Origin: Candidatus Thorarchaeota archaeon | GTDB taxonomy: Archaea > Asgardarchaeota > Thorarchaeia > Thorarchaeales > Thorarchaeaceae | Assembly: GCA_048882045.1 (NCBI GenBank) | Contig: JBHLRZ010000007.1 | Span: forward strand, 1 to 64,000 | Length of the DNA: 64,000 nt | Reading direction: 5' to 3' | Part shown: positions 3,664 through 14,122 of the stretch, one piece after another | How positions within the stretch are numbered: position 1 is the first letter of the stretch | Layout of the letters: each line of letters starts with the position of its first letter | The notes under the pieces: model-generated | What the model saw: only the letters and a program-made list of their open reading frames with translations | Database searches by the model: none | Told to the model about the DNA's origin: nothing | Program-made: the position numbers and the translations under genes

Positions 3664-4887
3664 TTAGTGACCGGGTCTATTCTTCAAAATTAAAACAGCC
3701 ATGACTATAATGATGACACTCGAACCCATTGCGAGGATGAGAGATAGTTGTTGTAGTGGTGTTTCATTCCCAGTTCCATTAGTTGTGGTTGTTGTGGTTG
3801 TTGTGGTTGTTATATTGCCACCATCAGGAATAGTGCCATTCGGAAAGTGGTCAATGCTTCCAGCTGGTCCAGGGATGAAATAGTAGCCTATCCCGGAATA
3901 GTCACTCCAGAAGTTTCCAATCTGGGAATATGAGTCATCCCAGGAGTTCTCTGTACCGCTATCATATGCATTACTTCCTGAGGTAGGACCAATTGTGTTG
4001 TTCACCACTGTAATATTATATGTTCCCTCTCCCAGATAGACACTACACTCTGTCGAATTAGAGAAGGAATTCTCCCATATCCATGACCCGTTAGTCATTA
4101 TCATTTCTAGTCCAAACTGACATTCATCAACGAAATTGTCATTGATCGCAATATTCCAAGAATCATGAGAGAATATACAGACACCCTCGAACATCTCTTC
4201 ATCCCATAAGTTGCTCGTGATATTGTTGTCACGGATGTAGGTGGATTTGTCACGAACACACACGACTGCATAATCGGGGATGGATATGATTGAATTCTCT
4301 ACTAGCGTACATTGATCTGTCAGAGTGAAGTTGACACCGACCCAATCATTCCAACCGAAGTTGTTGTTTTCCACATAGACAAATTGACTCTCCATAACTG
4401 TGAGCCCGGTGTAACAGTCATGAGTAGTTGTGTGACTAATTCTGATATTGAAGGAATCACAAATGAAGATCCCTGTGTCTTTCATATGAGCTTGTGAACC
4501 CTCAATCAAACCGTTTGAGCAGTTGATGAGTTTAATTCCCGTTGACCCCCAGTATTCTGAGTCCGTGTCATGTATATCACAATCAGTGATTGCAAAATGC
4601 AAGTCTACATTCATTATTGTGATGCCTTCATATGAGAACGAAATCCAATAGTTAGAAATCATTATTGGATTCCCTGGTTCTCCGCTCCCTGACCACTCAT
4701 TTGCCATCTGTTGTGAAAGGAGATCAGTATTGTTCCGGACTATGATTGGTTCGTGTACCTCCAGTTGTGCGAGAAGTACGTCAGTATCAATGGGTTCAAC
4801 CAGTGATGTCAAACTCTTCATCGAGCTTCCAAGAGTCCCTAATAGCAATAACATGAGCACTACACAGAATCCTGATTTGTATCTCAA
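3664..4887 (-). CDS. Membrane-anchored right-handed beta-helix (NosD/CASH-like) surface protein
   Basis: N-terminal signal, HEPIIV..N..W.GSG..GNP motif, PbH repeats, GNFWSDY motif, poly-Thr linker, C-terminal TM helix. Confidence 0.85.
   Translation of the reverse strand: MRYKSGFCVVLMLLLLGTLGSSMKSLTSLVEPIDTDVLLAQLEVHEPIIVRNNTDLLSQQMANEWSGSGEPGNPIMISNYWISFSYEGITIMNVDLHFAITDCDIHDTDSEYWGSTGIKLINCSNGLIEGSQAHMKDTGIFICDSFNIRISHTTTHDCYTGLTVMESQFVYVENNNFGWNDWVGVNFTLTDQCTLVENSIISIPDYAVVCVRDKSTYIRDNNITSNLWDEEMFEGVCIFSHDSWNIAINDNFVDECQFGLEMIMTNGSWIWENSFSNSTECSVYLGEGTYNITVVNNTIGPTSGSNAYDSGTENSWDDSYSQIGNFWSDYSGIGYYFIPGPAGSIDHFPNGTIPDGGNITTTTTTTTTTNGTGNETPLQQLSLILAMGSSVIIIVMAVLILKNRPGH
3782..3811. repeat. 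9-bp tandem repeat (GTTGTGGTT x3) encoding poly-Thr linker
   Basis: Seen directly in sequence. Confidence 0.85.
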
Positions 4888-5086
4888 TGGAAACTCCCAC
4901 CTATGTTGTGTTGATAGTTGGAGGATTATTTACACTTAAGTCAATTTGTAGTTTCTCGAACACATTTCTAACACAAGCTTGATGGAAGCGTGAATGGTAT
5001 TGTTGTTGTATCAGCTTGCTGAATCCTATTGGCACACTCAGAGGTTCAATGAAAGATTCGCACGCTCTGTCAACGTTGAACACCAA

Positions 5087-5094
5087 CTATATTA
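5087..5094 (+). promoter_or_regulatory. Putative TATA box of the aromatic operon leader
   Basis: CTATATTA ends about 25 nt upstream of the leader-peptide ATG (5120), the spacing expected for a leaderless archaeal transcript. Confidence 0.5.
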
Positions 5095-5119
5095 GGTCAC
5101 GTACCAGAATTTTGGTTTA

Positions 5120-5212
5120 ATGAAAATCTTGACTGAAAATGCAGTAGCCACTCGAACATACTTGACGGTAGACCGTCAGTATAGTGGCGTCTATTATAGC
5201 TATTATAGCTGA
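5120..5212 (+). CDS. Putative Tyr-rich leader peptide (30 aa, MKILTENAVATRTYLTVDRQYSGVYYSYYS)
   Basis: ATG 5120 to TGA 5212, followed by TAG. 6 Tyr codons, 5 of them in the last 10 codons. Directly upstream of a tyrosine-biosynthesis operon. Confidence 0.7.
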   Translation: MKILTENAVATRTYLTVDRQYSGVYYSYYS

Positions 5213-5352
5213 TAGACTGCAAGTCGAGATATTCAGCACTCATGTGCTGATACTTGTTCTGGTGGTTCTATGACTCTAAGCTCAAATCTAGTGGATGGGA
5301 GGTCTCCCTGTATTGGTCCCATAATCAATATGCTAAAGGAGGAGATAGAAGA
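5120..5352 (+). promoter_or_regulatory. Structured attenuator-like 5' leader
   Basis: Helices 5126-5134/5222-5230, 5147-5152/5183-5188, 5163-5168/5173-5178, 5189-5194/5212-5217 and 5233-5239/5244-5250. Alternative helix 5146-5158/5255-5267. Confidence 0.6.
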
Positions 5353-5356
5353 TTGA
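5270..5356 (+). CDS. Putative second uORF (28 aa, MTLSSNLVDGRSPCIGPIINMLKEEIED) coupled to first operon gene
   Basis: GGTGG SD-like motif at 5261-5265. Stop TGA overlaps the TTG start of the next gene (TTGA at 5353-5356). Confidence 0.35.
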   Translation: MTLSSNLVDGRSPCIGPIINMLKEEIED

Positions 5357-6756
5357 CAGATACCAATAACTTGAGCACTCTAAGAAAAGAGATTGAACAG
5401 CTAACCTTAGAGATTGTCAGACTTGCTGGTAAAAGGACCAAACTGACTACTGATATTGGATTGGAGAAGCAAAGGCTTGGTTTGTCTTTGGTCAACAGAG
5501 AAGTTGAACGGAATCTCCGGCTTAAAGTTCTGAGGCAGTGTGCTGAAAATGGCCATGATCCTAACTTTGCACTTAGACTAGTCAATGAACTAATCATAGA
5601 ATCGATCAGCAAACAAGAACTTCTCGAGGAACCTGAGGAACCTGAGGAACCATTGAGTGCGTATCACATCTTTGTAAAAGTAAAACAACTTGAGAATGAG
5701 GGCAAAGAGATCATTCATCTTGAAGTCGGAGAACCCGACTTTGGCCCACCAAAACCAGTTGCTGAATCTTTAACGAAAGCAGCAGTTTCAGGACATGCAG
5801 GATATACTCAGTCATCGGGAATTCGTGAACTGCAAGAAAAAATTGCAGCTTATGTAAACCAATCGTTTAATTCGGATATTGCAACTGAACAAATCATAGT
5901 CACTGTTGGGGGACGATTCGCATTATTCTTGGGCTTAGCTACAAATCTAAATCCTGGAGATGAAGTGATTATCATCGATCCATCATATCCGGGTTATTCT
6001 GATTGTGTCAAGGAAATGGGAGCAAGACCTGTTCACATATCCGCTAAACTTGATGATGGATGGAACATTGATCCTGATTTATTGAATGAAGCAATCAATC
6101 GAACTACAAAGATGATTATAATCAATAGTCCGGGAAATCCTACAGGCAAGATTGTTGAAAAAACTGACCTAAAGATGATTGCAGACCTTTCAATCGATAA
6201 TGGCCTCTTGATAGTTAGTGACGAGGTTTACTCAGCGTTCTCGTTCAGACCATTTACAAGTGTGCTTCAATTTCCAGAATGCAACCACATCCATGTCAGC
6301 TCATTCTCAAAGACATTTGGTATGACTGGATTCAGACTGGGATATGCAATATCTTCAGCTGAAACCATTCAGAGAATGATCCAGCTTCAAAACCTCTCAC
6401 TAACATGTGTCTCCGAATTCGTTCAGCATGCAGGTCTCAAAGCATTGGATTGCCTAGAAGAATCGAGAGACTATGTTGACCTGGTTATGCGTAGACAGAC
6501 CATTATTACCAAGGAGCTGGACAAACTACCCGTAAGGTATCATCAACCTGAAGGAGGATTCTATGTTTTTCCAAAGATTAGTTATGATCTCACAGGAGTA
6601 GAATTTGCGGAAAGGCTTCTTACAGAGAAAGATGTAGCTGTTGTCCCAGGAACAGCTTACGGGAAAGACTTCACTCAGTTTTTCAGAATCTCAGTTTGTC
6701 AACCTGAAAATAATCTCATTGAATCAGTCCGGAGAATGGAGGAGATTCTATCGTGA
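5353..6756 (+). CDS. Chorismate mutase (AroQ) - class I/II PLP aminotransferase fusion
   Basis: N-terminal LSTLRKEIE..IVRL..R..IG..K..REVE AroQ pattern. Aminotransferase motifs LEVGEPDF, NSPGNPTG, SDEVY, SFSKTFGMTGFRLGY. Start placed at TTG 5353 after SD AGGAGG. Confidence 0.88.
   Translation: MTDTNNLSTLRKEIEQLTLEIVRLAGKRTKLTTDIGLEKQRLGLSLVNREVERNLRLKVLRQCAENGHDPNFALRLVNELIIESISKQELLEEPEEPEEPLSAYHIFVKVKQLENEGKEIIHLEVGEPDFGPPKPVAESLTKAAVSGHAGYTQSSGIRELQEKIAAYVNQSFNSDIATEQIIVTVGGRFALFLGLATNLNPGDEVIIIDPSYPGYSDCVKEMGARPVHISAKLDDGWNIDPDLLNEAINRTTKMIIINSPGNPTGKIVEKTDLKMIADLSIDNGLLIVSDEVYSAFSFRPFTSVLQFPECNHIHVSSFSKTFGMTGFRLGYAISSAETIQRMIQLQNLSLTCVSEFVQHAGLKALDCLEESRDYVDLVMRRQTIITKELDKLPVRYHQPEGGFYVFPKISYDLTGVEFAERLLTEKDVAVVPGTAYGKDFTQFFRISVCQPENNLIESVRRMEEILS
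5626..5652 (+). repeat. 9-bp tandem repeat encoding EEP-EEP-EEP interdomain linker
   Basis: GAGGAACCT GAGGAACCT GAGGAACCA. Confidence 0.85.
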
Positions 6757-7616
6757 GAACTGCAGTCATTGGAGGAGCAGGAGGAATGGGGAAATTGTTA
6801 GTCGAGCACTTTCTTGGACTCGGTCACTCAGTAATAGTGTCAGACCCGAAGAGTATTGACACGAAAAACAGAGTTGAATTCACATCTAACAATACTATTG
6901 CAGTCAAAGATGCTGATCTTGTTGTGATATCTGTACCTATGGACCTTACTACACAAATCGTTCAAGAAGTTACTCCATTCATGAATGAGAATTCAATACT
7001 TTGTGAAATAGCCACACTAAAGTCGAACATTGTTGAGGAACTGAAAACGCTCGGAAATCTCGGTATTCAGCCGCTTTCAATTCATCCACTCTTTGGACCC
7101 AGCTCTGAGGACCTCAGGAAAAAGTACGCCTTAATACCCGTACTGGATATGCGACGTGAAAAAGACCTTGCCAACGCATTATTCCCTGACTCGCAGATTA
7201 TAGTGATCGAGTCATCAGAGCATGACAGGTTCATGGCGTTGACTCTTTCCCTTCCTTACTTTGCAAATATAATTTTGGCTTCAGTTTTGAAGGACGAGGA
7301 TTTCACACTCATTGAACAGCTCAGTGGAACAACATTCGCAATTCAATTCATGCTGTCAATGAGTATCATGTCACACTCCTCTGAGTTTCAACTAGCTCTT
7401 CAAACTGAAAATCAAAATTCAATTGGAGTTCTGAAGGCGTTCCAAACCAGATTTGCTGAGGAACTCTCGCAACTGGAAAATGATCCAATCGCATTTCAGA
7501 AATCCTATCGCAAGACAAAATCACAATTGGAAGAAAAGCTTGTTCTTGAACAGAAGTATCAAGATATGTACAGAATTCTGAAAGTCTTAGAGGAGGAGGT
7601 GGAGGAAAGATCTTGA
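6753..7616 (+). CDS. tyrA: Prephenate/arogenate dehydrogenase
   Basis: IGGAGGMG Rossmann motif, EIATLK, SIHPLFGP, EHDRFMA. Confidence 0.92.
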   Translation: MRTAVIGGAGGMGKLLVEHFLGLGHSVIVSDPKSIDTKNRVEFTSNNTIAVKDADLVVISVPMDLTTQIVQEVTPFMNENSILCEIATLKSNIVEELKTLGNLGIQPLSIHPLFGPSSEDLRKKYALIPVLDMRREKDLANALFPDSQIIVIESSEHDRFMALTLSLPYFANIILASVLKDEDFTLIEQLSGTTFAIQFMLSMSIMSHSSEFQLALQTENQNSIGVLKAFQTRFAEELSQLENDPIAFQKSYRKTKSQLEEKLVLEQKYQDMYRILKVLEEEVEERS

Positions 7617-8698
7617 TATTCTCTAAATTCGAAGTAGTGACAGAAAGCAGAAAATATCCCGTTATAGTAGGACTGAACCTTCTAATCCGAATTGGGGAAA
7701 TGCTTGAGGAGCGATTGGAACGAGTATTCATCATATGTGATGACGAAGTTTCAAATCTCTATTTAGCCTCATTAATCGAAGGTCTTGAGCGTTCAGGGAT
7801 TGATGCTATAACGAAGATTATACCCTCAGGGGAATCATCCAAGACCCTAACTTCAGTCGAGATCCTTTATAATTTCCTCACTGATAATACTGCAACGAGA
7901 TCTGATACCATTATTGCACTAGGCGGGGGAGTTGTCGGTGATATTGCAGGATTTGTTGCTTCGACATTCAAGAGAGGAATGAGGTTGATCCAGCTTCCCA
8001 CTACTTTGCTGGCTCAAACTGATTCGGCAATCGGAGGAAAGACCGGATTAAATCTGAAGGATGGAAAGAATTTGGTGGGAACGTTCTATCAACCACATGC
8101 TGTTATTATTGACATAGAAACCCTCAGCTCATTACCGATAACTGATTTCATTGGGGGCCTTGCTGAGGTAATCAAATATGCATTTACGATGGATCCAGAA
8201 CTATTCGAAATCCTCATTGAGAAAGAGAAAGAGATCCTCCAGAGAGAGCCTGAAGTAATATCCGTGATAGTTGAAAGAGCCTTAAGAAATAAGGCAAAAG
8301 TAGTAGAGGTAGATGAGAGAGAGGAACAGGGAAGAAGAGAGATACTGAATTTTGGTCACACAGTAGGTCATGCAATCGAAGTCTGTACCAATCACAGCAT
8401 TTTGCATGGTCAGGCTGTAGCCATTGGGATGGTAGAAGAAGCAAAATTAGCTGTAGGGAGAGGATTGTTAGTTAAATCAGTCCTTGAATCACTCATTCAT
8501 ATTCTAACACTGTTTGGACTACCGACAGAATTACCAAACAATGTTGATTTCAATCAACTTCAAAGAATAATGAAGCAGGACAAGAAAGTGAGGGATGGTC
8601 AACTCACGATTCCAATGTTAGTTGGACTAGGTAAGACCAAGATGATTGTCAATACTGTTGACATTCTGAATTTTGAAGGAGATACGACCCTATGTTAG
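7613..8698 (+). CDS. aroB: 3-dehydroquinate synthase (bacterial-type)
   Basis: ALGGGVVGD, PTTLLAQTDSAIGGKTG, LNFGHTVGHA, HGQAVAIG. Confidence 0.96.
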   Translation: MIFSKFEVVTESRKYPVIVGLNLLIRIGEMLEERLERVFIICDDEVSNLYLASLIEGLERSGIDAITKIIPSGESSKTLTSVEILYNFLTDNTATRSDTIIALGGGVVGDIAGFVASTFKRGMRLIQLPTTLLAQTDSAIGGKTGLNLKDGKNLVGTFYQPHAVIIDIETLSSLPITDFIGGLAEVIKYAFTMDPELFEILIEKEKEILQREPEVISVIVERALRNKAKVVEVDEREEQGRREILNFGHTVGHAIEVCTNHSILHGQAVAIGMVEEAKLAVGRGLLVKSVLESLIHILTLFGLPTELPNNVDFNQLQRIMKQDKKVRDGQLTIPMLVGLGKTKMIVNTVDILNFEGDTTLC

Positions 8699-9693
8699 TT
8701 GTAATGTATAGAAACGCAACAGAAGAACAAATAGAAAAAGTACTGCAGACTGTGAATAATCTTGGGTACACACCCATTCCCAATCCAGGTGCTCAAAGAA
8801 TGGTGATCAACATAACTGGCGATGTTGATCTGTTGGACTCTAGCAAGATTGAGGATCTAGAGGGAGTCATGAAGGTCATCCGAGTTACAAAGCCCTATAG
8901 ACTAGCGGACATCGAAATCAAACCTGAGCCAACAGTAATCGAAGTCGGTGACGTTGAGATTGGTGGAGGCAATATCACTATCATAGCTGGTCCATGTAGT
9001 GTTGAATCCAAAGAGCAAATTGTCGAAGCTGCGATTGCGGTGAAGGAATGTGGTGGAGATATCCTTCGCGGAGGCGCATTCAAACCAAGAACTTCACCAT
9101 ATTCATTCCAAGGACTTGGTATAGAGGGTCTCAAATATCTCAAAGAAGCGCGTCGTCGAACGGGACTTCCAATAATTACTGAGGCAGTAGATGTTGAAAC
9201 GTTTGGATATGTAGAGTCAATTGCAGATATTGTTCAGATTGGTGCCAGGAATATGCAGAATTACTCGCTCCTGAAAAGAGCAGGACTCTCACCCAAACCA
9301 GTTCTATTGAAACGAGGTATGTGGGCGACACTAACGGAACTGCTTGCTGCAGCAGAGTACATTATGTCTGAAGGAAACCATCAGGTCATACTCTGCGAGA
9401 GAGGAATACGGACCCAAGGCAATCATGTCAGGTTTACACTAGATTTGGCTAGTATCCCAGTCCTACGAACTCTTACACATCTTCCATTGATAGTAGATCC
9501 AAGTCACGCAGCAGGAAAGAGGGACATTGTTATTCCATTGGCTCGTGCAGGTCTAGCTGTAGGAGCAGATGGTCTGATTATTGAGGTCCACCCTAAACCA
9601 GAAGATGCACTTGTGGATGGAGCTCAGTCCCTCACAGTTGAGATGTTTCGTGACTTCATGGGAACGCTCAACGACAACAAAGTGAGAGTGTAG
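8692..9693 (+). CDS. aroF: DAHP synthase type I-beta with N-terminal ferredoxin-like regulatory domain
   Basis: [39 protein letters not shown]. Confidence 0.95.
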
Positions 9694-9708
9694 GAGTGCA
9701 TTTCGTGT

Positions 9709-10380
9709 ATGACCCGACTCTGTGTCTGCCTTACTGAGAAGACATCACTCAGTTGCAGTGACTTCGTGAAAAATACAGACGCTGATCTCATAGAGCACCG
9801 TATGGATTTCATGAATCCAATCCAAGGTCTGAGTGAAATCTATTCGAGTACAGAAATTCCAATCATAGCGACATGTCGTTCTCGCACGGAAGGTGGATTC
9901 TTCAAAGGGAAAGAAACTCAAAGAATCAATCATCTAATAGAAGCTGTCAAAGCTGGAGCTTCGTTTGTGGACGTTGAGGTAGAAACAAAGCAGCATCACT
10001 TCTTGAAGATACGTGATGTCATCTCTACCATGAGTTGTCAACTCATTATGTCAAAGCACTATTCTGAGTTCACACCAAGATATGACAAGCTAGTTGAACT
10101 AATCCAAAAAATGCAGAGAACAGATGCAGATATTCTGAAGATTGTGGTTACTCCTCAAACAATTCAAGATTGCATTCATGTACTGCAGCTTTACGCGGAT
10201 GAGAAAATAGAAACCCCGCTCATATCTTTTGGAATGGGTGATCGATGGAAATTCACTCGTGTGGTAGCTTTACTCATGGGAGCACCCTTCATGTATGTTT
10301 CACAAGATACTGGCCAGCCAGCAGCCTCTGGACAGATTTCTTTGTCTGAAATGAGGAGGATACTGGAGGTGCTGTCTTGA
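9709..10380 (+). CDS. aroD: Type I 3-dehydroquinate dehydratase
   Basis: EHRMD, ATCRS..EGG, KIV, FGMG..TR, A.GQ motifs and operon context. Confidence 0.9.
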   Translation: MTRLCVCLTEKTSLSCSDFVKNTDADLIEHRMDFMNPIQGLSEIYSSTEIPIIATCRSRTEGGFFKGKETQRINHLIEAVKAGASFVDVEVETKQHHFLKIRDVISTMSCQLIMSKHYSEFTPRYDKLVELIQKMQRTDADILKIVVTPQTIQDCIHVLQLYADEKIETPLISFGMGDRWKFTRVVALLMGAPFMYVSQDTGQPAASGQISLSEMRRILEVLS

Positions 10381-11222
10381 AGAAATTAGTCTTGATTGGG
10401 CATCCACTTGGTCACTCACTAAGTCCAGTTATGCATAATGCGGCTCTTCGAGAACTCGGCCTCGACGACCAGTATAGGTATGAATTACGACCAGTGTATG
10501 AACATGAGCTTGAGAATATTGTGGCATCGATACAAAACGAAGAGTTGGCTGGAGCAAATGTTACAATTCCTTACAAGTCCAAAATTATGAGGCACCTTTC
10601 AGATATTTCAGAAGATGCAAGAGCCATTGGCTCTGTTAATACACTTGTACGCATCGACAAGGAGGTTCGAGGGTACAATACAGATGTTTCAGGATTCATT
10701 CATTCCATGGCAGACCACTCCATTTCGCTTCGCGGAAAGAGAGCAATCATTCTTGGAGCAGGAGGAGCCGCCAGAGCAATAGCATACGCTCTCGTCAAAG
10801 AAGGAGTTACACAATTGGACCTAGTAAATCGGACTCTCCATAACTCGCAGAAGTTAGTGGATGATCTGAGTCTGAAAGAATATTGTGATGTCAAGCTCTG
10901 GTCAATGCATTCGATAAATTTGACGAGTGATAATTCAGACCTTCTGATAAACTGCACACCAATTGGAATGACAGGACACTCAATTTCGAAAACTCCAGTT
11001 AAGGCGGATTTCCTTCATCGTGACATGATTGTAACTGATCTTGTATACAATCCAAGAATGACCAAATTGTTGCAAATGGCTGAACGAGAAGGTTGCACCA
11101 TTATTGACGGGATTGGAATGTTGGTTCACCAGGGAGCCCAAGCGCTTGAGTTATGGACCAATGAGAAACCACCAATTGAAACGATGAAACGTTCTGTCAT
11201 TGATGTGTTGGGAGGGAAATGA
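10377..11222 (+). CDS. aroE: Shikimate dehydrogenase
   Basis: HSLSPVMHN, NVTIPYK, NTD, GAGGAARA, DLVYNP. Confidence 0.96.
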   Translation: MKKLVLIGHPLGHSLSPVMHNAALRELGLDDQYRYELRPVYEHELENIVASIQNEELAGANVTIPYKSKIMRHLSDISEDARAIGSVNTLVRIDKEVRGYNTDVSGFIHSMADHSISLRGKRAIILGAGGAARAIAYALVKEGVTQLDLVNRTLHNSQKLVDDLSLKEYCDVKLWSMHSINLTSDNSDLLINCTPIGMTGHSISKTPVKADFLHRDMIVTDLVYNPRMTKLLQMAEREGCTIIDGIGMLVHQGAQALELWTNEKPPIETMKRSVIDVLGGK

Positions 11223-11223
11223 A

Positions 11224-11745
11224 ATGAGAGGGAACTCAAGAAAGAACATTGGTCTCATCGGCTTCATGGGTACAGGAAAATCGACAATCGGTAAAGCCTT
11301 GGCTGAATCCACCAACAAACAATTCTTTGACACTGATAAAATCATAGAAGAGAAATCAGGAAAGACTGTAAGTCTAATATTCGAGAAATCTGGTGAGAAT
11401 GTTTTCCGTAGGTTGGAATCAGATGTCGTAGTAGAGGTATGTCAAAACGAGTCAGCTGTTATCAGTTTTGGCGGAGGAGTCGTTCTTTCATCGTCGAATG
11501 TTGAAACGATCAGGAAGAGTTGCGTAGTGGTCTTACTTAGAGCGACTGTTGATTCTATCTTTGAGAGAACTCATTCGATGAATGTTCGTCCGTTACTGAA
11601 TGAACAGGATAGGCGGAGCAAGATAGGTGAAATGCTCGACACCAGAATGGGAGCATACGAGAGTTCCATGGACATTGCAGTTGACACCGATTTCAGGGAT
11701 CCGTTGGACCTGGTCGAAGAAATCCGGAGGAGGTTGAAAATCTGA
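11224..11745 (+). CDS. aroK: Shikimate kinase, bacterial P-loop type
   Basis: GFMGTGKSTIG, DTD, FRRLE, SFGGG, RPLL. Start chosen at ATG 11224. Confidence 0.93.
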   Translation: MRGNSRKNIGLIGFMGTGKSTIGKALAESTNKQFFDTDKIIEEKSGKTVSLIFEKSGENVFRRLESDVVVEVCQNESAVISFGGGVVLSSSNVETIRKSCVVVLLRATVDSIFERTHSMNVRPLLNEQDRRSKIGEMLDTRMGAYESSMDIAVDTDFRDPLDLVEEIRRRLKI

Positions 11746-13037
11746 AGGCCATTGTCGGGAGGTCTGAGATAGGTGGTACAGTTCGAGCTCCTCCATCGAA
11801 GAGCTATACACATAGAGGGATAGTTTGTGGTTTTCTATCAAGACATACCACCAAGATCATCAATCCACTCATCTGCGACGACACCGAAGCTACTCAGCGC
11901 CTGTCGAGAATGATGGGAGCACATTTAGAAATTGAAAGCTCGATTCGAATTACAGGTCCTGAGAAGCTTCAAGCTCCATCATTGGAAATGGACTGCGGAG
12001 GTTCCGCAACAACTCTACGCATTTTTACTGCATTGTCCGCATTGACCGATGGAAAATGTGTGTTAACTGGAAACCATTCTTTGAGAGCAAGACCCATGTT
12101 TGACATGCTACGTGCCCTCGATCAACTCGGAATAAAGACATCATCCTATCAAGGGTCCAATAAGCCCCCTATAGAGGTATACGGCAGAGGATTACAGGGT
12201 GGTGTAGTGTCAATTCGTGGTGACATTTCGTCTCAATACATCTCTGGACTTCTCCTAGCATGTTCAAAAGCTGAGAATGAAACCAGAGTCGAGTTAACTA
12301 CTCATCTTGAATCGAAACCATATGTTGAGATGACAATTGAAGTAATGCGTCATTTTGGAATAGTTGTCGATCCATTGAGCGATCAGAACACATTCAGAGT
12401 TCCTGGAAAGCAGGAATACCGAGCCTCAGAATTCGTAGTTCCAGGGGATTTCTCATCTGCAGCTATTCCTTTGGCAGCAGGTTCTCTTTGTGGAAAAACC
12501 GAGGTCAATGGACTGAGTAGAGATTCAAGGCAAGGCGATTCATTGATCCTCCGTTTCCTTGAGAACATGGGAGGGTCAGTGACTTCGTCAGAGGGAGGAT
12601 TCACAACACAACTCTCAGAACTTCATGCGTCAGACATCGATGTTGCACATACCCCGGATTTGGTTCCGATATTGTCTGTCCTTGCCACGCAAGCTCTGGG
12701 AACAACTCGCATTTACAATGCAGGCAGATTACGAATAAAGGAGAGTGACAGATTGACTTCAATAAGAACTGAACTAAATAAGATGGGCGCACGAATAAAC
12801 GAAACAACAGACGGGCTAGTCATAGAGGGACCCACACCTCTTCATGGAGCAGACATAGACTCTCACAGCGATCATCGGATAGCTATGGCTTGTTTCGTTG
12901 CAGCACTCATAGCAGAGGGACAAACAATAATCAATGGAGTAGAGTGTGTAACCAAAAGTTATCCAACATTTCTGGAAGACATGCAATCTCTTGGAGCAGA
13001 ATTTGAGTTAGAGAGAGATAGGAGGACAGCAAAGTGA
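11742..13037 (+). CDS. aroA: EPSP synthase, probable CTG start
   Basis: The in-frame region upstream of ATG 11910 encodes APPSKSYTHR and DDTEAT. Other motifs: SSQYISG, RIKESDR, DHRIAM, KSYP. CTG 11742 overlaps the aroK stop and follows GGAGGAGG. Confidence 0.93.
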   Translation: MKAIVGRSEIGGTVRAPPSKSYTHRGIVCGFLSRHTTKIINPLICDDTEATQRLSRMMGAHLEIESSIRITGPEKLQAPSLEMDCGGSATTLRIFTALSALTDGKCVLTGNHSLRARPMFDMLRALDQLGIKTSSYQGSNKPPIEVYGRGLQGGVVSIRGDISSQYISGLLLACSKAENETRVELTTHLESKPYVEMTIEVMRHFGIVVDPLSDQNTFRVPGKQEYRASEFVVPGDFSSAAIPLAAGSLCGKTEVNGLSRDSRQGDSLILRFLENMGGSVTSSEGGFTTQLSELHASDIDVAHTPDLVPILSVLATQALGTTRIYNAGRLRIKESDRLTSIRTELNKMGARINETTDGLVIEGPTPLHGADIDSHSDHRIAMACFVAALIAEGQTIINGVECVTKSYPTFLEDMQSLGAEFELERDRRTAK

Positions 13038-14122
13038 CATTCACATTTGGGAAGATATTCAGAATCCAAGTATTTGGAGAATCTCACGGAAATGGTGTAG
13101 GTGTGGTTATTGAAGGAGTACCACCTGGGTTCCCTATTGATAAATCTCAGATTCAAAGGGAGTTAGATCGCCGACGTCCTGGCTCAGGAGAACTTGTTTC
13201 AGCGAGGTCAGAGATGGACAATTTCAGCATACGAAGTGGAGAGTTTAATGGAAGAGCGACAGGAGGACCGATAATGATGTTTATACCAAACATCGACATC
13301 GATTCCACTTCATATGAAGAGATAAAGGACACTCCTAGACCAGGTCATGCAGACTACACTGCTCGAATGAAATACAAAGGAAACAACGACTATCGTGGTG
13401 GAGGCTTCTTCTCTGGGAGAATAACTGCAGCTTATGTAATGGCAGGAGCCATAGCAAAACAGATACTGCAGACTCTCGAGATCGAGGTGCATGCTCACAC
13501 AACGCAAATTGGAAGAGTTATTGTCCAGAAGGATATCTCGAGTGAAGAGATCAAGAATAATGTATACACAAATCCAGTAAGATGTGCAGATACCGATTTA
13601 GTTTCTGAAATGGAATTGGAAATTGCGAACGCAAGAGAGGATGATGACTCGGTAGGCGGGGTGATTGAATGCCGAATTATCGGAGCTCCAGTTGGTCTAG
13701 GAGAACCGATTTTTGATTCAGTTGAGAGTGTAATCAGTCATGGAATGTTCAGTATTCCTGCCATCAAAGGAATTGAATTCGGTTCAGGATTTGAAGGCTC
13801 TGCGAAACGAGGTTCAGAAAATAACGACTTTCCAATCATAGAGAACGGTGAGGTCACTTGGTCGAAAAATGATTCTGGAGGTATCTTAGGAGGAATAAGT
13901 AATGGAGCCCCCATCGTTTTTCGAGTAGCTATCAAACCAACTCCGAGTATTGGAAGAGAGCAGAAGACTGTTGACCTAGGAACTATGAAAGAAACAATCA
14001 TTCAGATCAAAGGTCGCAATGATCCATCGATAGTTCCAAGGGCTGTTCCAGTTGTGGAATCGATGGCTGCTCTAGTTATTGTGGACTTAATGATGATGAA
14101 TTCAACAATTATCAATCCATGA
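13034..14122 (+). CDS. aroC: Chorismate synthase
   Basis: FGESHG, RRRPG, PRPGHAD, DSVGG, GGISNG, KPTPSI. Confidence 0.97.
   Translation: MTFTFGKIFRIQVFGESHGNGVGVVIEGVPPGFPIDKSQIQRELDRRRPGSGELVSARSEMDNFSIRSGEFNGRATGGPIMMFIPNIDIDSTSYEEIKDTPRPGHADYTARMKYKGNNDYRGGGFFSGRITAAYVMAGAIAKQILQTLEIEVHAHTTQIGRVIVQKDISSEEIKNNVYTNPVRCADTDLVSEMELEIANAREDDDSVGGVIECRIIGAPVGLGEPIFDSVESVISHGMFSIPAIKGIEFGSGFEGSAKRGSENNDFPIIENGEVTWSKNDSGGILGGISNGAPIVFRVAIKPTPSIGREQKTVDLGTMKETIIQIKGRNDPSIVPRAVPVVESMAALVIVDLMMMNSTIINP

What the first reader, a model, noticed from the sequence alone, without database searches (positions are those of the whole stretch)
5087..5356. Candidate tyrosine-sensing leader-peptide attenuator in an (Asgard) archaeon
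Seen in sequence: a TATA-like box (5087-5094) lies about 25 nt before an unannotated 30-codon ORF (5120-5212, MKILTENAVATRTYLTVDRQYSGVYYSYYS). The ORF has 6 Tyr codons, with YYSYY just before the stop. The operon downstream makes chorismate and, through chorismate mutase, TyrA and an aminotransferase, tyrosine. It has no pheA or trp genes, so the enriched amino acid matches the end product. Established knowledge: short leader peptides rich in the cognate amino acid are the hallmark of bacterial ribosome-mediated attenuation (trpL, pheL, hisL). To my knowledge this mechanism is not well established in archaea. Inference: a leaderless uORF senses Tyr-tRNA supply and controls the operon.
Basis: partly seen in the sequence, partly recalled or inferred. 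Interest (0 to 1): 0.92.

Follow-up and report, generated by a model that had tools for sequence, protein, structure and literature searches.

The report
Tyrosine-sensing leader gene, Asgard archaeon
A tiny tyrosine-rich gene sits inside an RNA that can fold two ways, in front of the tyrosine-making operon of this Thorarchaeota archaeon and all 24 relatives that carry the operon; it very probably lets the ribosome gauge tyrosine supply, a control known in bacteria for which I found no published archaeal case.

Summary
The 30-codon ORF at 5120-5212 exists as described. It lies 24 nt after a TATA box and before an operon encoding chorismate mutase-aminotransferase (CM-AT), TyrA and seven shikimate-pathway enzymes.

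- **Distribution:** a homologous leader precedes the CM-AT gene in all 24 Thorarchaeota-family genomes that have that gene. It was found in none of the 62 that lack it.
- **uORF1:** across about six clades it stays open in one frame (23-32 codons). It begins at the predicted transcript 5' end, and its last eight codons always include 2-4 Tyr codons. Tyr codons 26 and 28 are the only invariant triplets in the 3' half of 23 aligned leaders.
- **Two competing RNA folds:** the 20 nt after the uORF1 stop pair either back into uORF1 (a helix junction with compensatory changes) or forward onto the Shine-Dalgarno box and AUG of a second uORF.
- **uORF2:** it is open in 26 of 26 leaders, and its stop overlaps the CM-AT start (UUGA/AUGA).

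My reading is a ribosome-mediated tyrosine attenuator built as a two-uORF relay. The sensor is well supported. The output step and the sign of regulation are inferred only; no RNA data could be obtained. This scan has already noted the same leader in another Thorarchaeota genome (e1-5555012).

The parts
5088..5095 (+). TATA box (TATATTAG) with an A-rich upstream flank; promoter of the leader and operon
   Evidence: Conserved as TATA(T/A)(T/A)A(G/A) in relatives. It lies 23-25 nt before codon 1 in 23 of 26 leaders, and the spacer is not conserved. The TSS was not mapped.
5120..5212 (+). uORF1: 30-codon Tyr-rich leader ORF, predicted to start at the 5' end of the transcript (leaderless)
   Evidence: Open in the same frame in 26 of 26 leaders, while the other two frames carry 1-7 stops each. 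Internal indels are +3 and +6 nt. The start is ATG at codon 1, or GTG at codon 1 plus ATG at codon 5.
5192..5206 (+). Regulatory Tyr cluster, codons 25, 26, 28 and 29 (TAT TAT AGC TAT TAT)
   Evidence: Every leader has 2-4 Tyr among its last 8 codons. Codons 26 and 28 are invariant at all three positions in 23 aligned leaders. Tyr is kept where hairpin P4 is not (L074, L101).
5126..5133 (+). P1 5' strand (ATCTTGAC, uORF1 codons 3-5)
   Evidence: Pairs with 5223-5230. Compensatory changes occur across clades (pair 8:111 is AU 7, CG 3, UA 3; pair 9:110 is CG 11, GC 3).
5141..5220 (+). Inner helices of fold A: P2 (5141-5145 with 5216-5220), P3 (5147-5152 with 5183-5188), P3b hairpin (5158-5182), P4 hairpin (5191-5215)
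   Evidence: RNAalifold consensus for the genus and for 15 leaders of other genera (where 7 of 22 pairs show compensatory changes). MFE folds.
5212..5232 (+). Switch strand: the 3' strands of P4, P2 and P1, which also form the 5' strand of hairpin T
   Evidence: Pairs backward in fold A or forward with 5251-5271. It starts 2-7 nt after the stop in most leaders (0-7 over all), and by my count 8-16 nt after the first base of the last Tyr codon.
5233..5250 (+). Hairpin H (TCAGCAC-TCAT-GTGCTGA), variable in sequence but always present; forms the tip of hairpin T
   Evidence: Flagged as terminator-like. A different stem sequence sits at the same place in every clade.
5253..5272 (+). Pyrimidine/U-rich tract (CTTGTTCT), Shine-Dalgarno box of uORF2 (GGTGGT, 5261-5266) and its ATG (5270-5272); together the 3' strand of hairpin T
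   Evidence: A block of the form YUUGUUYUGGUG(G/A)U...AUG is conserved in nearly all leaders. SD2 is paired in T in nearly every clade, with a clade-specific partner.
5270..5356 (+). uORF2: 28 codons; its TGA stop overlaps the TTG start of the first enzyme gene (ATTGA)
   Evidence: Open for 25-52 codons in 26 of 26 leaders. The stop always lies about -8 to +8 nt from the main start, mostly as UUGA or AUGA (start positions).
5337..5344 (+). Shine-Dalgarno box of the first enzyme gene (AGGAGGAG)
   Evidence: Read from the sequence. A GGAGG-like box lies 7-13 nt before the start in most leaders.
5353..6756 (+). Chorismate mutase-aminotransferase fusion gene (CM-AT), first enzyme gene of the operon
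   Evidence: Pfam CM_2 (1.2e-9) and Aminotran_1_2 (6.5e-61). The leader occurs only with this gene.
6753..14122 (+). Rest of the operon: tyrA, aroB, DAHP synthase, aroD, aroE, aroK, aroA, aroC
   Evidence: Pfam. The genes are co-directional and overlap or abut.

Best explanation
This is a ribosome-mediated tyrosine attenuator built as a two-uORF relay.

**Sensor.** Transcription starts 0-2 nt before uORF1, so a ribosome loads on the 5' end of the RNA. How far that ribosome gets depends on charged tRNA-Tyr, because 2-4 Tyr codons sit among the last eight codons.

**Switch.** The 20 nt after the stop codon (the switch strand) can pair in two ways.
- *Fold A:* it pairs backward with the start of uORF1 (helices P1 and P2). 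This closes a four-helix domain and leaves the ribosome-binding site of uORF2 free.
- *Hairpin T:* it pairs forward and buries the Shine-Dalgarno box and AUG of uORF2.

**Geometry.** A ribosome stalled on the last Tyr codon ends just short of the switch strand. A ribosome at the stop codon must melt or cover it.

**Relay.** uORF2 ends on the start codon of the chorismate mutase-aminotransferase gene. That junction resembles the overlapping stop-start junctions seen further down the operon (open frames), so uORF2 is the likely entry point for ribosomes into a translationally coupled chain.

**Proposed logic (inferred).**
- When Tyr-tRNA is scarce, the stalled ribosome spares P1 and P2, which form before the uORF2 site is transcribed. 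P1 also blocks further loading at the 5' end. The uORF2 site stays open and the operon is expressed.
- When Tyr-tRNA is plentiful, the ribosome runs to the stop and unwinds P2 and P1. The nearby hairpin T then forms and closes uORF2. The untranslated U-rich leader may in addition be exposed to termination.

**Shown:** conservation of the ORF, the Tyr codons, both folds, the geometry and the stop-start overlap.
**Inferred:** translation of the uORFs, stalling, the direction of the response, and whether the output is translational, transcriptional or both.
For: 1. **Co-occurrence.** The leader occurs once per genome, always directly before the CM-AT gene. It is present in all 24 family genomes that have the gene: 16 were found with covariance model R1 and 8 by reading the upstream DNA. 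No match at E <= 0.1 was found in the 62 genomes without the gene, nor in the 125 genomes of other Asgard families sampled.
2. **Signs of a translated frame.**
   - The frame is open in 26 of 26 leaders, while the other frames hold 1-7 stops.
   - About 6% of random substitutions would create an in-frame stop, and clades differ at 20-43 of 90 nt, yet no stop has been fixed.
   - Internal length changes are +3 and +6 nt.
   - An in-frame ATG is always present, at codon 1 or at codon 5.
   - Codon 1 lies 23-25 nt after the TATA box.
3. **Tyr codons.** uORF1 has 10-20% Tyr in 25 of 26 leaders, against 3.5% in the proteome. Codons 26 and 28 are invariant. The Y-Y-x-Y pattern persists in leaders where the P4 hairpin sequence is lost (L074 YYWY, L101 YYIY).
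4. **Fold A.** There is a consensus structure in two independent alignments, and 7 of 22 pairs show compensatory changes outside the genus.
5. **Hairpin T.** It is predicted in 23 of 25 leaders when the stop-to-AUG2 stretch is folded alone, with z from -1.6 to -4.0. It is the consensus fold within the genus. The switch strand to SD2 duplex beats shuffled controls at p <= 0.05 in 10 of 17 leaders. The anti-SD partner differs by clade (ACUGC, GUCACC, CGCUAC, CACC) while SD2 stays paired.
6. **Balance of the two folds.** Their predicted energies differ by less than about 5 kcal/mol in most leaders (range -9 to +6).
7. **uORF2.** It is open in 26 of 26 leaders, and its stop lies about -8 to +8 nt from the main start.
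8. **Closest tested precedent.** Leaderless poly-Cys short ORFs of mycobacteria act as translational attenuators (bioRxiv 10.1101/834739).
Against: - There is no transcript, ribosome-profiling or reporter evidence.
- The direction of regulation cannot be read from the sequence. In the simplest equilibrium view, any ribosome on uORF1 breaks fold A and favours hairpin T. That would switch the operon off in starvation, which is the wrong way round for a biosynthetic operon.
- Folding with ribosome-sized stretches masked gave no consistent change in accessibility of the uORF2 site (0.2-0.6 unpaired in all states).
- The proposed on state needs P1 and P2 to pair around a stalled ribosome, which is unusual.
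- Hairpin T has no single register across clades, so RNAalifold on all clades together finds nothing. The support for T rests on per-sequence folds, which always yield standard pairs.
- In 14 of 26 leaders codon 1 is GTG.
- The whole uORF lies inside a stable structure.
- Within the genus, nearly every base is conserved, so the Tyr codons there are not separately informative.
- One leader (L100) has only 2 Tyr codons.
Confidence: 0.7

Rival explanations
1. The leader is a structured RNA sensor, and the ORF is incidental. The four-helix 5' domain would bind a small molecule, a protein or uncharged tRNA-Tyr. Binding would stabilise P1 and so decide between fold A and hairpin T, as an aptamer and expression platform do in a riboswitch.
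For: The architecture is riboswitch-like: a junction closed by P1, whose 3' strand is shared with a helix that hides a ribosome-binding site. DNA conservation inside the genus is extreme. Substitutions in uORF1 are spread evenly over the three codon positions, and amino-acid conservation in the middle of the peptide is poor (my count).
Against: - No Rfam family matches, even at E = 10.
- Junctions and loops are not conserved between clades (J1/2, the P3 internal loop and the P3b loop all vary). A ligand pocket would require them to be conserved.
- The invariant bases are helix strands plus two Tyr codons.
- This reading does not explain the open frame in 26 of 26 leaders, the frame-preserving indels, the switch of the ATG between codon 1 and codon 5, the fixed distance from the TATA box to the start codon, or the stop codon lying just ahead of the switch strand (0-7 nt).
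Confidence: 0.12
2. uORF1 encodes an arrest peptide that senses free tyrosine. Like TnaC with tryptophan, the nascent peptide ending in (Y/F)SG-Y-x-Y would stall the ribosome at or near the stop codon when free tyrosine is bound. The ribosome would then hold the switch strand.
For: The peptide motif (Y/F)SG-x-Y-x-Y lies near the C-terminus in nearly all clades. The stop codon lies 0-7 nt before the switch strand, so a ribosome arrested there would mask it. TnaC is a tested precedent (PMC8429421, listed).
Against: - The S-G codons are also the 3' strand of helix P3, so their conservation needs no peptide-level explanation.
- The residues after the Tyr cluster and the distance to the stop vary (YYSYH*, YSYSYSL*, YSYRA*).
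- Holding the switch strand would open uORF2 when tyrosine is high, the wrong direction for a biosynthetic operon if uORF2 couples positively to the first enzyme gene.
Confidence: 0.08
3. The leader is an ordinary conserved 5' region: promoter, RNA-stability structure and a coupled start. The small ORFs have no sensing role, or uORF1 encodes a small protein with a function of its own.
For: No expression data exist. A single shuffled leader keeps an ORF of this length 7-9% of the time. A crude genome scan found no cognate-amino-acid mini-ORF before other biosynthetic genes.
Against: - The Tyr enrichment matches the operon's end product and is unique in the genome.
- The ORF, the Tyr cluster and the position of the stop survive sequence turnover across clades.
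- The peptide is poorly conserved outside the motif, which argues against a working small protein.
Confidence: 0.07

Closest known systems
Enterobacterial leader-peptide transcription attenuators (trpL-trpE, pheL-pheA, hisL, thrL)
   Same: A short leader ORF lies ahead of an amino-acid biosynthesis operon. Codons for the end product cluster near its end. The stop codon is placed so that a terminating ribosome covers a strand that a stalled ribosome leaves free. That strand chooses between two exclusive RNA folds.
   Different: - The host is an archaeon with a TATA promoter, and the leader ORF is leaderless.
- No Rfam leader family matches.
- The alternative fold hides a ribosome-binding site rather than forming a proven terminator.
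- Hairpin H plus its U-rich tract is not in competition with any other helix.
- A second uORF relays the signal.
- From memory, archaeal RNA polymerase stops at U-tracts without needing a hairpin. It does so with the help of aCPSF1/FttA (PMC8716108, PMC11616081, by title and abstract).
Mycobacterial leaderless poly-Cys short ORFs (Cys-responsive translational attenuators; bioRxiv 10.1101/834739)
   Same: A leaderless short ORF sits at the transcript start and has a run of codons for the pathway's amino acid. [quoted passage not shown] Regulation is by ribosome position and acts on translation.
   Different: There, the stalled ribosome itself blocks the structure that hides the binding site. 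Here, the partner of the uORF2 site starts at or beyond the edge of a ribosome stalled on the last Tyr codon. The hidden site belongs to a second uORF rather than to the enzyme gene, and a large competing 5' domain exists.
ermC/cat-type translational attenuation
   Same: Ribosome stalling in a leader ORF re-pairs the downstream RNA and controls access to a Shine-Dalgarno box.
   Different: Those systems sense a drug through the nascent peptide, not the supply of a charged tRNA, and they are bacterial. This comparison rests on memory and was not tested here.
Eukaryotic uORF relays (GCN4, ATF4)
   Same: Two upstream ORFs lie in series and respond to amino-acid supply. The last one overlaps the start of the main ORF out of frame.
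   Different: Those systems work by scanning and reinitiation governed by eIF2. Here there are Shine-Dalgarno boxes, RNA refolding and stop-start overlaps of 1-8 nt. The resemblance is formal only and nothing here tests it.

Membership tests
Classical leader-peptide attenuators (trpL/pheL type) | Short leader ORF directly upstream of a biosynthetic operon, conserved as an ORF | tested here: met
   Open in 26 of 26 orthologous leaders in one frame. Translation itself was not shown.
Classical leader-peptide attenuators (trpL/pheL type) | Cluster of codons for the pathway's end product near the end of the leader ORF | tested here: met
   There are 2-4 Tyr among the last 8 codons of every leader. 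Codons 26 and 28 are invariant in 23 aligned leaders.
Classical leader-peptide attenuators (trpL/pheL type) | Mutually exclusive RNA folds sharing a strand placed just after the leader's stop codon | tested here: met
   Fold A competes with hairpin T. The shared strand starts 2-7 nt after the stop in most leaders.
Classical leader-peptide attenuators (trpL/pheL type) | A regulated intrinsic terminator (hairpin plus U-run) whose stem competes with an antiterminator | tested here: inconclusive
   Hairpin H with a U-rich tract is present in nearly every clade, but no helix competes with its stem. Whether termination occurs there cannot be tested with these tools.
Classical leader-peptide attenuators (trpL/pheL type) | Sequence and structure match to a curated leader family (Rfam Trp_leader, Phe_leader, His_leader and others) | tested here: not met
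   cmscan of 4800-5500 at E <= 10 gave only two chance-level matches, to unrelated families.
Leaderless short-ORF translational attenuators (mycobacterial Cys type) | The short ORF begins at the transcription start | tested here: inconclusive
   The TATA box lies 23-25 nt before codon 1 in 23 of 26 leaders. The TSS was not mapped.
Leaderless short-ORF translational attenuators (mycobacterial Cys type) | [quoted passage not shown] | tested here: met
   Hairpin T pairs the SD and AUG of uORF2 in nearly every clade.
Leaderless short-ORF translational attenuators (mycobacterial Cys type) | The stalled ribosome physically covers the strand that sequesters the binding site | tested here: not met
   By my count, the partner strand begins 8-16 nt after the first base of the last Tyr codon. 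That is at or beyond the leading edge of a stalled ribosome.
Riboswitch / T-box | Conserved unpaired core nucleotides forming a ligand or tRNA pocket, or a match to a known class | tested here: not met
   Junctions and loops vary between clades. There is no Rfam match.
TnaC-like arrest peptides | Conserved peptide residues at a fixed distance from the arrest site | tested here: inconclusive
   The motif (Y/F)SG-x-Y-x-Y is kept, but its distance to the stop varies from 1 to 4 codons, and its S-G codons are also a helix strand.

The most novel reading that the evidence does not exclude
Asgard archaea would use a true two-uORF relay for amino-acid control. In it, a leaderless sensor uORF latches an RNA switch around its own stalled ribosome. 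That switch gates a second uORF, which feeds ribosomes into a translationally coupled operon. A possible second output would be hiding or exposing a U-rich tract to the archaeal termination factor aCPSF1/FttA. This would be the first ribosome-mediated attenuation mechanism described in Archaea. It would be built differently from the bacterial ones, and it would sit in the lineage closest to eukaryotes, which also use uORF relays.
Probability: 0.3. Interest if true: 0.95.

Novelty: new variant of a known kind. Interest (0 to 1): 0.86.

Why it matters
Ribosome-mediated attenuation is a textbook bacterial mechanism. It depends on translation acting on a nascent or freshly made leader RNA. Five full-text searches found no paper describing a leader-peptide attenuator in any archaeon.

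This locus is a clean, phylogenetically supported case in Thorarchaeota. It has a defined sensor (Tyr codons), a defined switch strand and a defined target (the ribosome-binding site of uORF2). The question therefore becomes directly testable with reporters, structure probing and in vitro transcription-translation.

It would show how archaea, with eukaryote-like transcription and bacteria-like coupled translation, wire amino-acid feedback without a protein regulator. It also gives a search template for further cases: a cognate-codon uORF at the TSS, followed by a competing helix over the next start site. Notes from this scan suggest that Trp, Met, branched-chain and aromatic versions exist in other archaea (unchecked by me). 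If so, this would be a general and overlooked layer of archaeal gene control.

Tried and rejected
- **Rfam.** No match at E <= 10. Known leaders, T-box and riboswitch classes are rejected as families.
- **Aromatic in-frame extension.** In the other genera the block reads GGUGAU, which puts a UGA in that frame. In genus relatives the open frame reaches only up to about 15 codons upstream of the start. I rejected it as coding; the block is a Shine-Dalgarno box plus a helix strand.
- **Other sensing mini-ORFs in this genome.**
  - pheA has no Phe-rich leader.
  - Mini-ORFs with FFFF, YYYY or HHH runs precede a T2SS-F-like gene, an MFS transporter, a TPR gene and a NYN-domain gene; a fifth has no Pfam match. 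I treated these as noise.
- **Ribosome-masked folding.** It showed no consistent opening of the uORF2 site in either the stalled or the terminating state. A simple model of a stalled ribosome uncovering the binding site is not supported.
- **Consensus for hairpin T across clades.** RNAalifold finds none, because the register differs between clades.
- **Masking of the enzyme gene's own ribosome-binding site.** Predicted accessibility varies from 0.19 to 0.72, so there is no conserved masking.
- **UAG-repeat protein site (TRAP-like).** The spacing is irregular and the repeats are lost in L074 and L101. Rejected.
- **C/D-box sRNA and a pseudoknot from the 5' end to the P4 loop.** Considered by eye; neither is conserved.
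- **CM-AT fusions outside the family.** A word-based protein search gave only two Thorarchaeota proteins, so the origin of the operon was not pursued.
Full report
**What is there.** The window comes from a Candidatus Thorarchaeota genome assembled from a metagenome; record titles of near-identical relatives say so. At 5088-5095 lies TATATTAG. Twenty-four nucleotides later, ATG 5120 opens a 30-codon ORF that ends in TGA TAG. Its peptide has 6 Tyr residues, four of them at codons 25, 26, 28 and 29.

Downstream, Pfam identifies a chorismate mutase-aminotransferase fusion (CM-AT; TTG 5353, preceded by AGGAGGAG). It is followed by TyrA, AroB, DAHP synthase, AroD, AroE, AroK, AroA and AroC. pheA lies on another contig and has no comparable leader. 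No anthranilate synthase was found in this 93%-complete genome. The divergent upstream gene encodes a NosD-like beta-helix protein.

**Is it more than chance?** Tyr makes up 3.5% of the proteome. Of 11,987 ATG ORFs of 25-40 codons in the genome, only this one has at least 6 Tyr and at least 4 Tyr in its last six residues. A single shuffled leader keeps an ORF of this length 7-9% of the time, so the argument rests on comparison with relatives.

**Relatives.** In the genus, 7 of 28 genomes have the leader, once each. They are exactly the genomes that have the CM-AT fusion. The leaders are about 80-85% identical in DNA, whereas the CM-AT proteins are 46-59% identical. The 23-25 nt between the TATA box and the ATG, and one hairpin, are free to vary.

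A covariance model built from nine leaders found diverged copies in four more genera of the family. It found nothing convincing in 125 genomes of other Asgard families. A search with the CM domain found the gene in 24 of 86 family genomes. Sixteen of these had been hit by the model. In the other eight I read the upstream DNA and found the homologous leader each time. The 62 genomes without the gene gave no match at E <= 0.1. Two further copies came from metagenome contigs.

**uORF1 behaves like a translated frame.**
- In all 26 leaders an ORF of 23-32 codons is open in the same frame, while the two other frames carry 1-7 stops each.
- About 6% of random single substitutions would create an in-frame stop. 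Clade representatives differ at 20-43 of 90 positions, yet none has a stop.
- The two internal length differences are +3 nt (in the P3b hairpin) and +6 nt (an extra UAUAGY unit).
- The only frame-shifting change is a 1-nt deletion one codon before the stop in this window. The next stop follows two codons later.
- Where codon 1 is ATG, codon 5 is ACN or AAG. Where codon 1 is GTG, codon 5 is ATG.
- Codon 1 lies 23-25 nt after the TATA octamer in 23 of 26 leaders. This spacing predicts a transcript that begins 0-2 nt before the start codon.

**The Tyr codons.** The peptide ends are GVYYSY(Y/H/Q), GYYSYSYSL, GYYSYYL, GYYWYTL, GYYIYIL, GYYRYYL, GSYSY(R/G/S)A and GFYYFIL, plus one weak case, VFYHSYRDHR. 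In a 23-leader alignment, the only triplets in the 3' half that are invariant at all three positions are Tyr codons 26 and 28.

The P4 hairpin that contains these codons in the genus is not maintained in L074 or L101, yet Y-Y-x-Y is. The changes seen at these codons are synonymous (UAU/UAC) and never produce UAA or UAG. The rest of the peptide is poorly conserved, and substitutions spread evenly over the three codon positions. That is what is expected of a leader peptide whose sequence does not matter apart from its regulatory codons. UAU accounts for 80% of Tyr codons in the leaders, against 59% genome-wide.

**Two folds.**
- *Fold A* is a junction closed by P1. Codons 3-5 (5126-5133) pair with 5223-5230, just after the stop. 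Inside are P2, the P3/P3b hairpin and P4. In 15 leaders from other genera, RNAalifold again finds P1, P3 and P3b. Seven of the 22 pairs carry compensatory double changes, for example P1 pair 8:111 (AU 7, CG 3, UA 3) and pair 9:110 (CG 11, GC 3). P1 starts within 7 nt of the 5' end, and in one genus it includes the GUG start itself.
- *Fold B (hairpin T)* appears when the stretch from the stop to the second AUG is folded alone. In 23 of 25 leaders a long hairpin forms, with z from -1.6 to -4.0. The strand that follows the stop, which is the same set of bases that make the 3' halves of P4, P2 and P1, pairs with a pyrimidine-rich tract, a Shine-Dalgarno box (GGUGGU or GGUGAU) and the AUG of a second uORF. 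A hairpin of variable sequence (H) forms the tip.

The partner of the SD box differs by clade (ACUGC, GUCACC, CGCUAC, CACC), while the SD box stays paired. Within the genus, T is the consensus fold. There, one substitution (G to A in L043) breaks a P2 pair and improves a T pair. The duplex beats shuffled controls at p <= 0.05 in 10 of 17 leaders and trends that way in all but one. The register shifts between clades, so an all-clade consensus fails. Support for T is therefore weaker than for fold A. The two folds are predicted to be within about 5 kcal/mol of each other in most leaders.

**uORF2.** After the SD box comes an AUG (5270) that opens an ORF of 25-52 codons, open in 26 of 26 leaders. 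Only its first few codons are conserved. Its stop lies about -8 to +8 nt from the CM-AT start, mostly as UUGA or AUGA. In this window the junction is ATTGA at 5352-5356. Stop-start overlaps also occur further down the operon, for example at 6753, 7613 and 10377. uORF2 therefore looks like the first link of a translationally coupled chain.

**Geometry.** By my count, the first base pair of T, which is also the start of the P2/P1 3' strands, lies 8-16 nt (mostly 12) after the first base of the last Tyr codon. It lies 2-7 nt after the stop codon in most leaders (0-7 over all). A ribosome waiting for Tyr-tRNA therefore ends just short of the switch strand, while a ribosome at the stop codon must melt or cover it. 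This is the defining geometry of classical attenuators. The footprint sizes are from general knowledge and were not measured here.

**How it most likely works.** The sensor part follows from the above: the position of the uORF1 ribosome decides what the switch strand can do. The output is inferred, and a simple equilibrium reading gives the wrong direction. In that reading, any ribosome on uORF1 breaks fold A and favours T, which would shut off uORF2 in starvation. Masked-ribosome folding showed no clear effect either. I see three ways to obtain negative feedback.
- *(a) Kinetic latch (my preference).* The switch strand is transcribed 35-50 nt before the uORF2 site. A ribosome stalled on the Tyr cluster leaves both P1/P2 partner strands free, so they pair first. 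This also blocks further loading at the 5' end and leaves the uORF2 site open. A ribosome that reaches the stop unwinds P2 and P1, after which the local hairpin T wins.
- *(b) Hairpin T as antiterminator.* T would be the starvation-specific structure and would partly bury the U-rich tract at 5253-5260. Archaeal termination uses U-tracts together with aCPSF1/FttA (PMC8716108, PMC11616081).
- *(c) uORF2 as repressor.* uORF2 translation would repress the enzyme gene by occluding its start.
The experiments under the next steps separate these.

**Rivals.**
- *Riboswitch-type sensor.* The architecture fits. The lack of conserved unpaired bases, the lack of any Rfam match and all the reading-frame evidence argue against it.
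- *TnaC-like arrest peptide.* Possible, but the direction fits poorly and the distance from the motif to the stop varies.
- *No sensing role.* Hard to reconcile with the match between the enriched codon and the pathway, and with the retention of ORF, Tyr cluster and stop position across clades.

**Known or new.** Five full-text searches found no archaeal leader-peptide attenuator. The closest tested system is the set of leaderless poly-Cys short ORFs of mycobacteria, which act on translation.

This scan's own notes, which I have not checked, describe the same Tyr leader in another Thorarchaeota genome (e1-5555012). They also describe Trp, Met, Val/Leu and aromatic leader ORFs in other archaea. 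I file this locus as a new variant of a known kind. It works like a ribosome-mediated attenuator. It is not a member of any curated leader family, and it differs from them in domain of life, promoter type, leaderless start, two-uORF relay and the nature of the controlled structure.

Noticed in passing
window 11742-11910: With the first ATG (11910) as its start, the EPSP synthase match begins only at Pfam model position 67. The true start must therefore lie upstream, in the apparent gap after aroK. This agrees with an earlier scan note that proposes a CTG start at 11742.
   Followed up: no
window 5192-5209: The YYS-YYS ending in this genome is a perfect 9-nt tandem copy (TATTATAGC twice). There is also a 1-nt deletion relative to all genus relatives, which end Y-Y-S-Y-(Y/H/Q) at a TAG three bases earlier.
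   Followed up: partly
L102 (G175, genus g54), leader upstream of the CM-AT gene: This outlying leader carries a second copy of the start-like sequence and of the Y-F-S-G-Y-Y motif. The copy lies inside what aligns as uORF2 and ends on the main start. It may be a tandem or rearranged attenuator.
   Followed up: no
L043 (G012), position equivalent to window 5219: A G-to-A change breaks a P2 pair (C-A) and turns a G-U pair of hairpin T into A-U. In this leader the predicted minimum-energy fold is T rather than fold A.
   Followed up: partly
G000 contig C8, about 111,400-111,440, minus strand (locus L106): A 12-codon ORF, MLDCGYYYYKFG, with four consecutive Tyr codons lies about 65 nt before an MFS transporter gene. 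A TATA-like box sits too close to its ATG for a leaderless start. Its conservation was not examined.
   Followed up: partly
whole genome G000: No anthranilate synthase (PF00425) was found in the 93%-complete assembly, while pheA is present on contig C9. The chorismate made by this operon may therefore serve mainly Tyr and Phe.
   Followed up: partly
window 5254-5352: In this genome only, the reading frame of the CM-AT gene stays open upstream to TTG 5254 and reads L-F-W-W-F-Y through the conserved block. In other genera the same block contains an in-frame UGA, so this is a coincidence of the Shine-Dalgarno sequence.
   Followed up: yes
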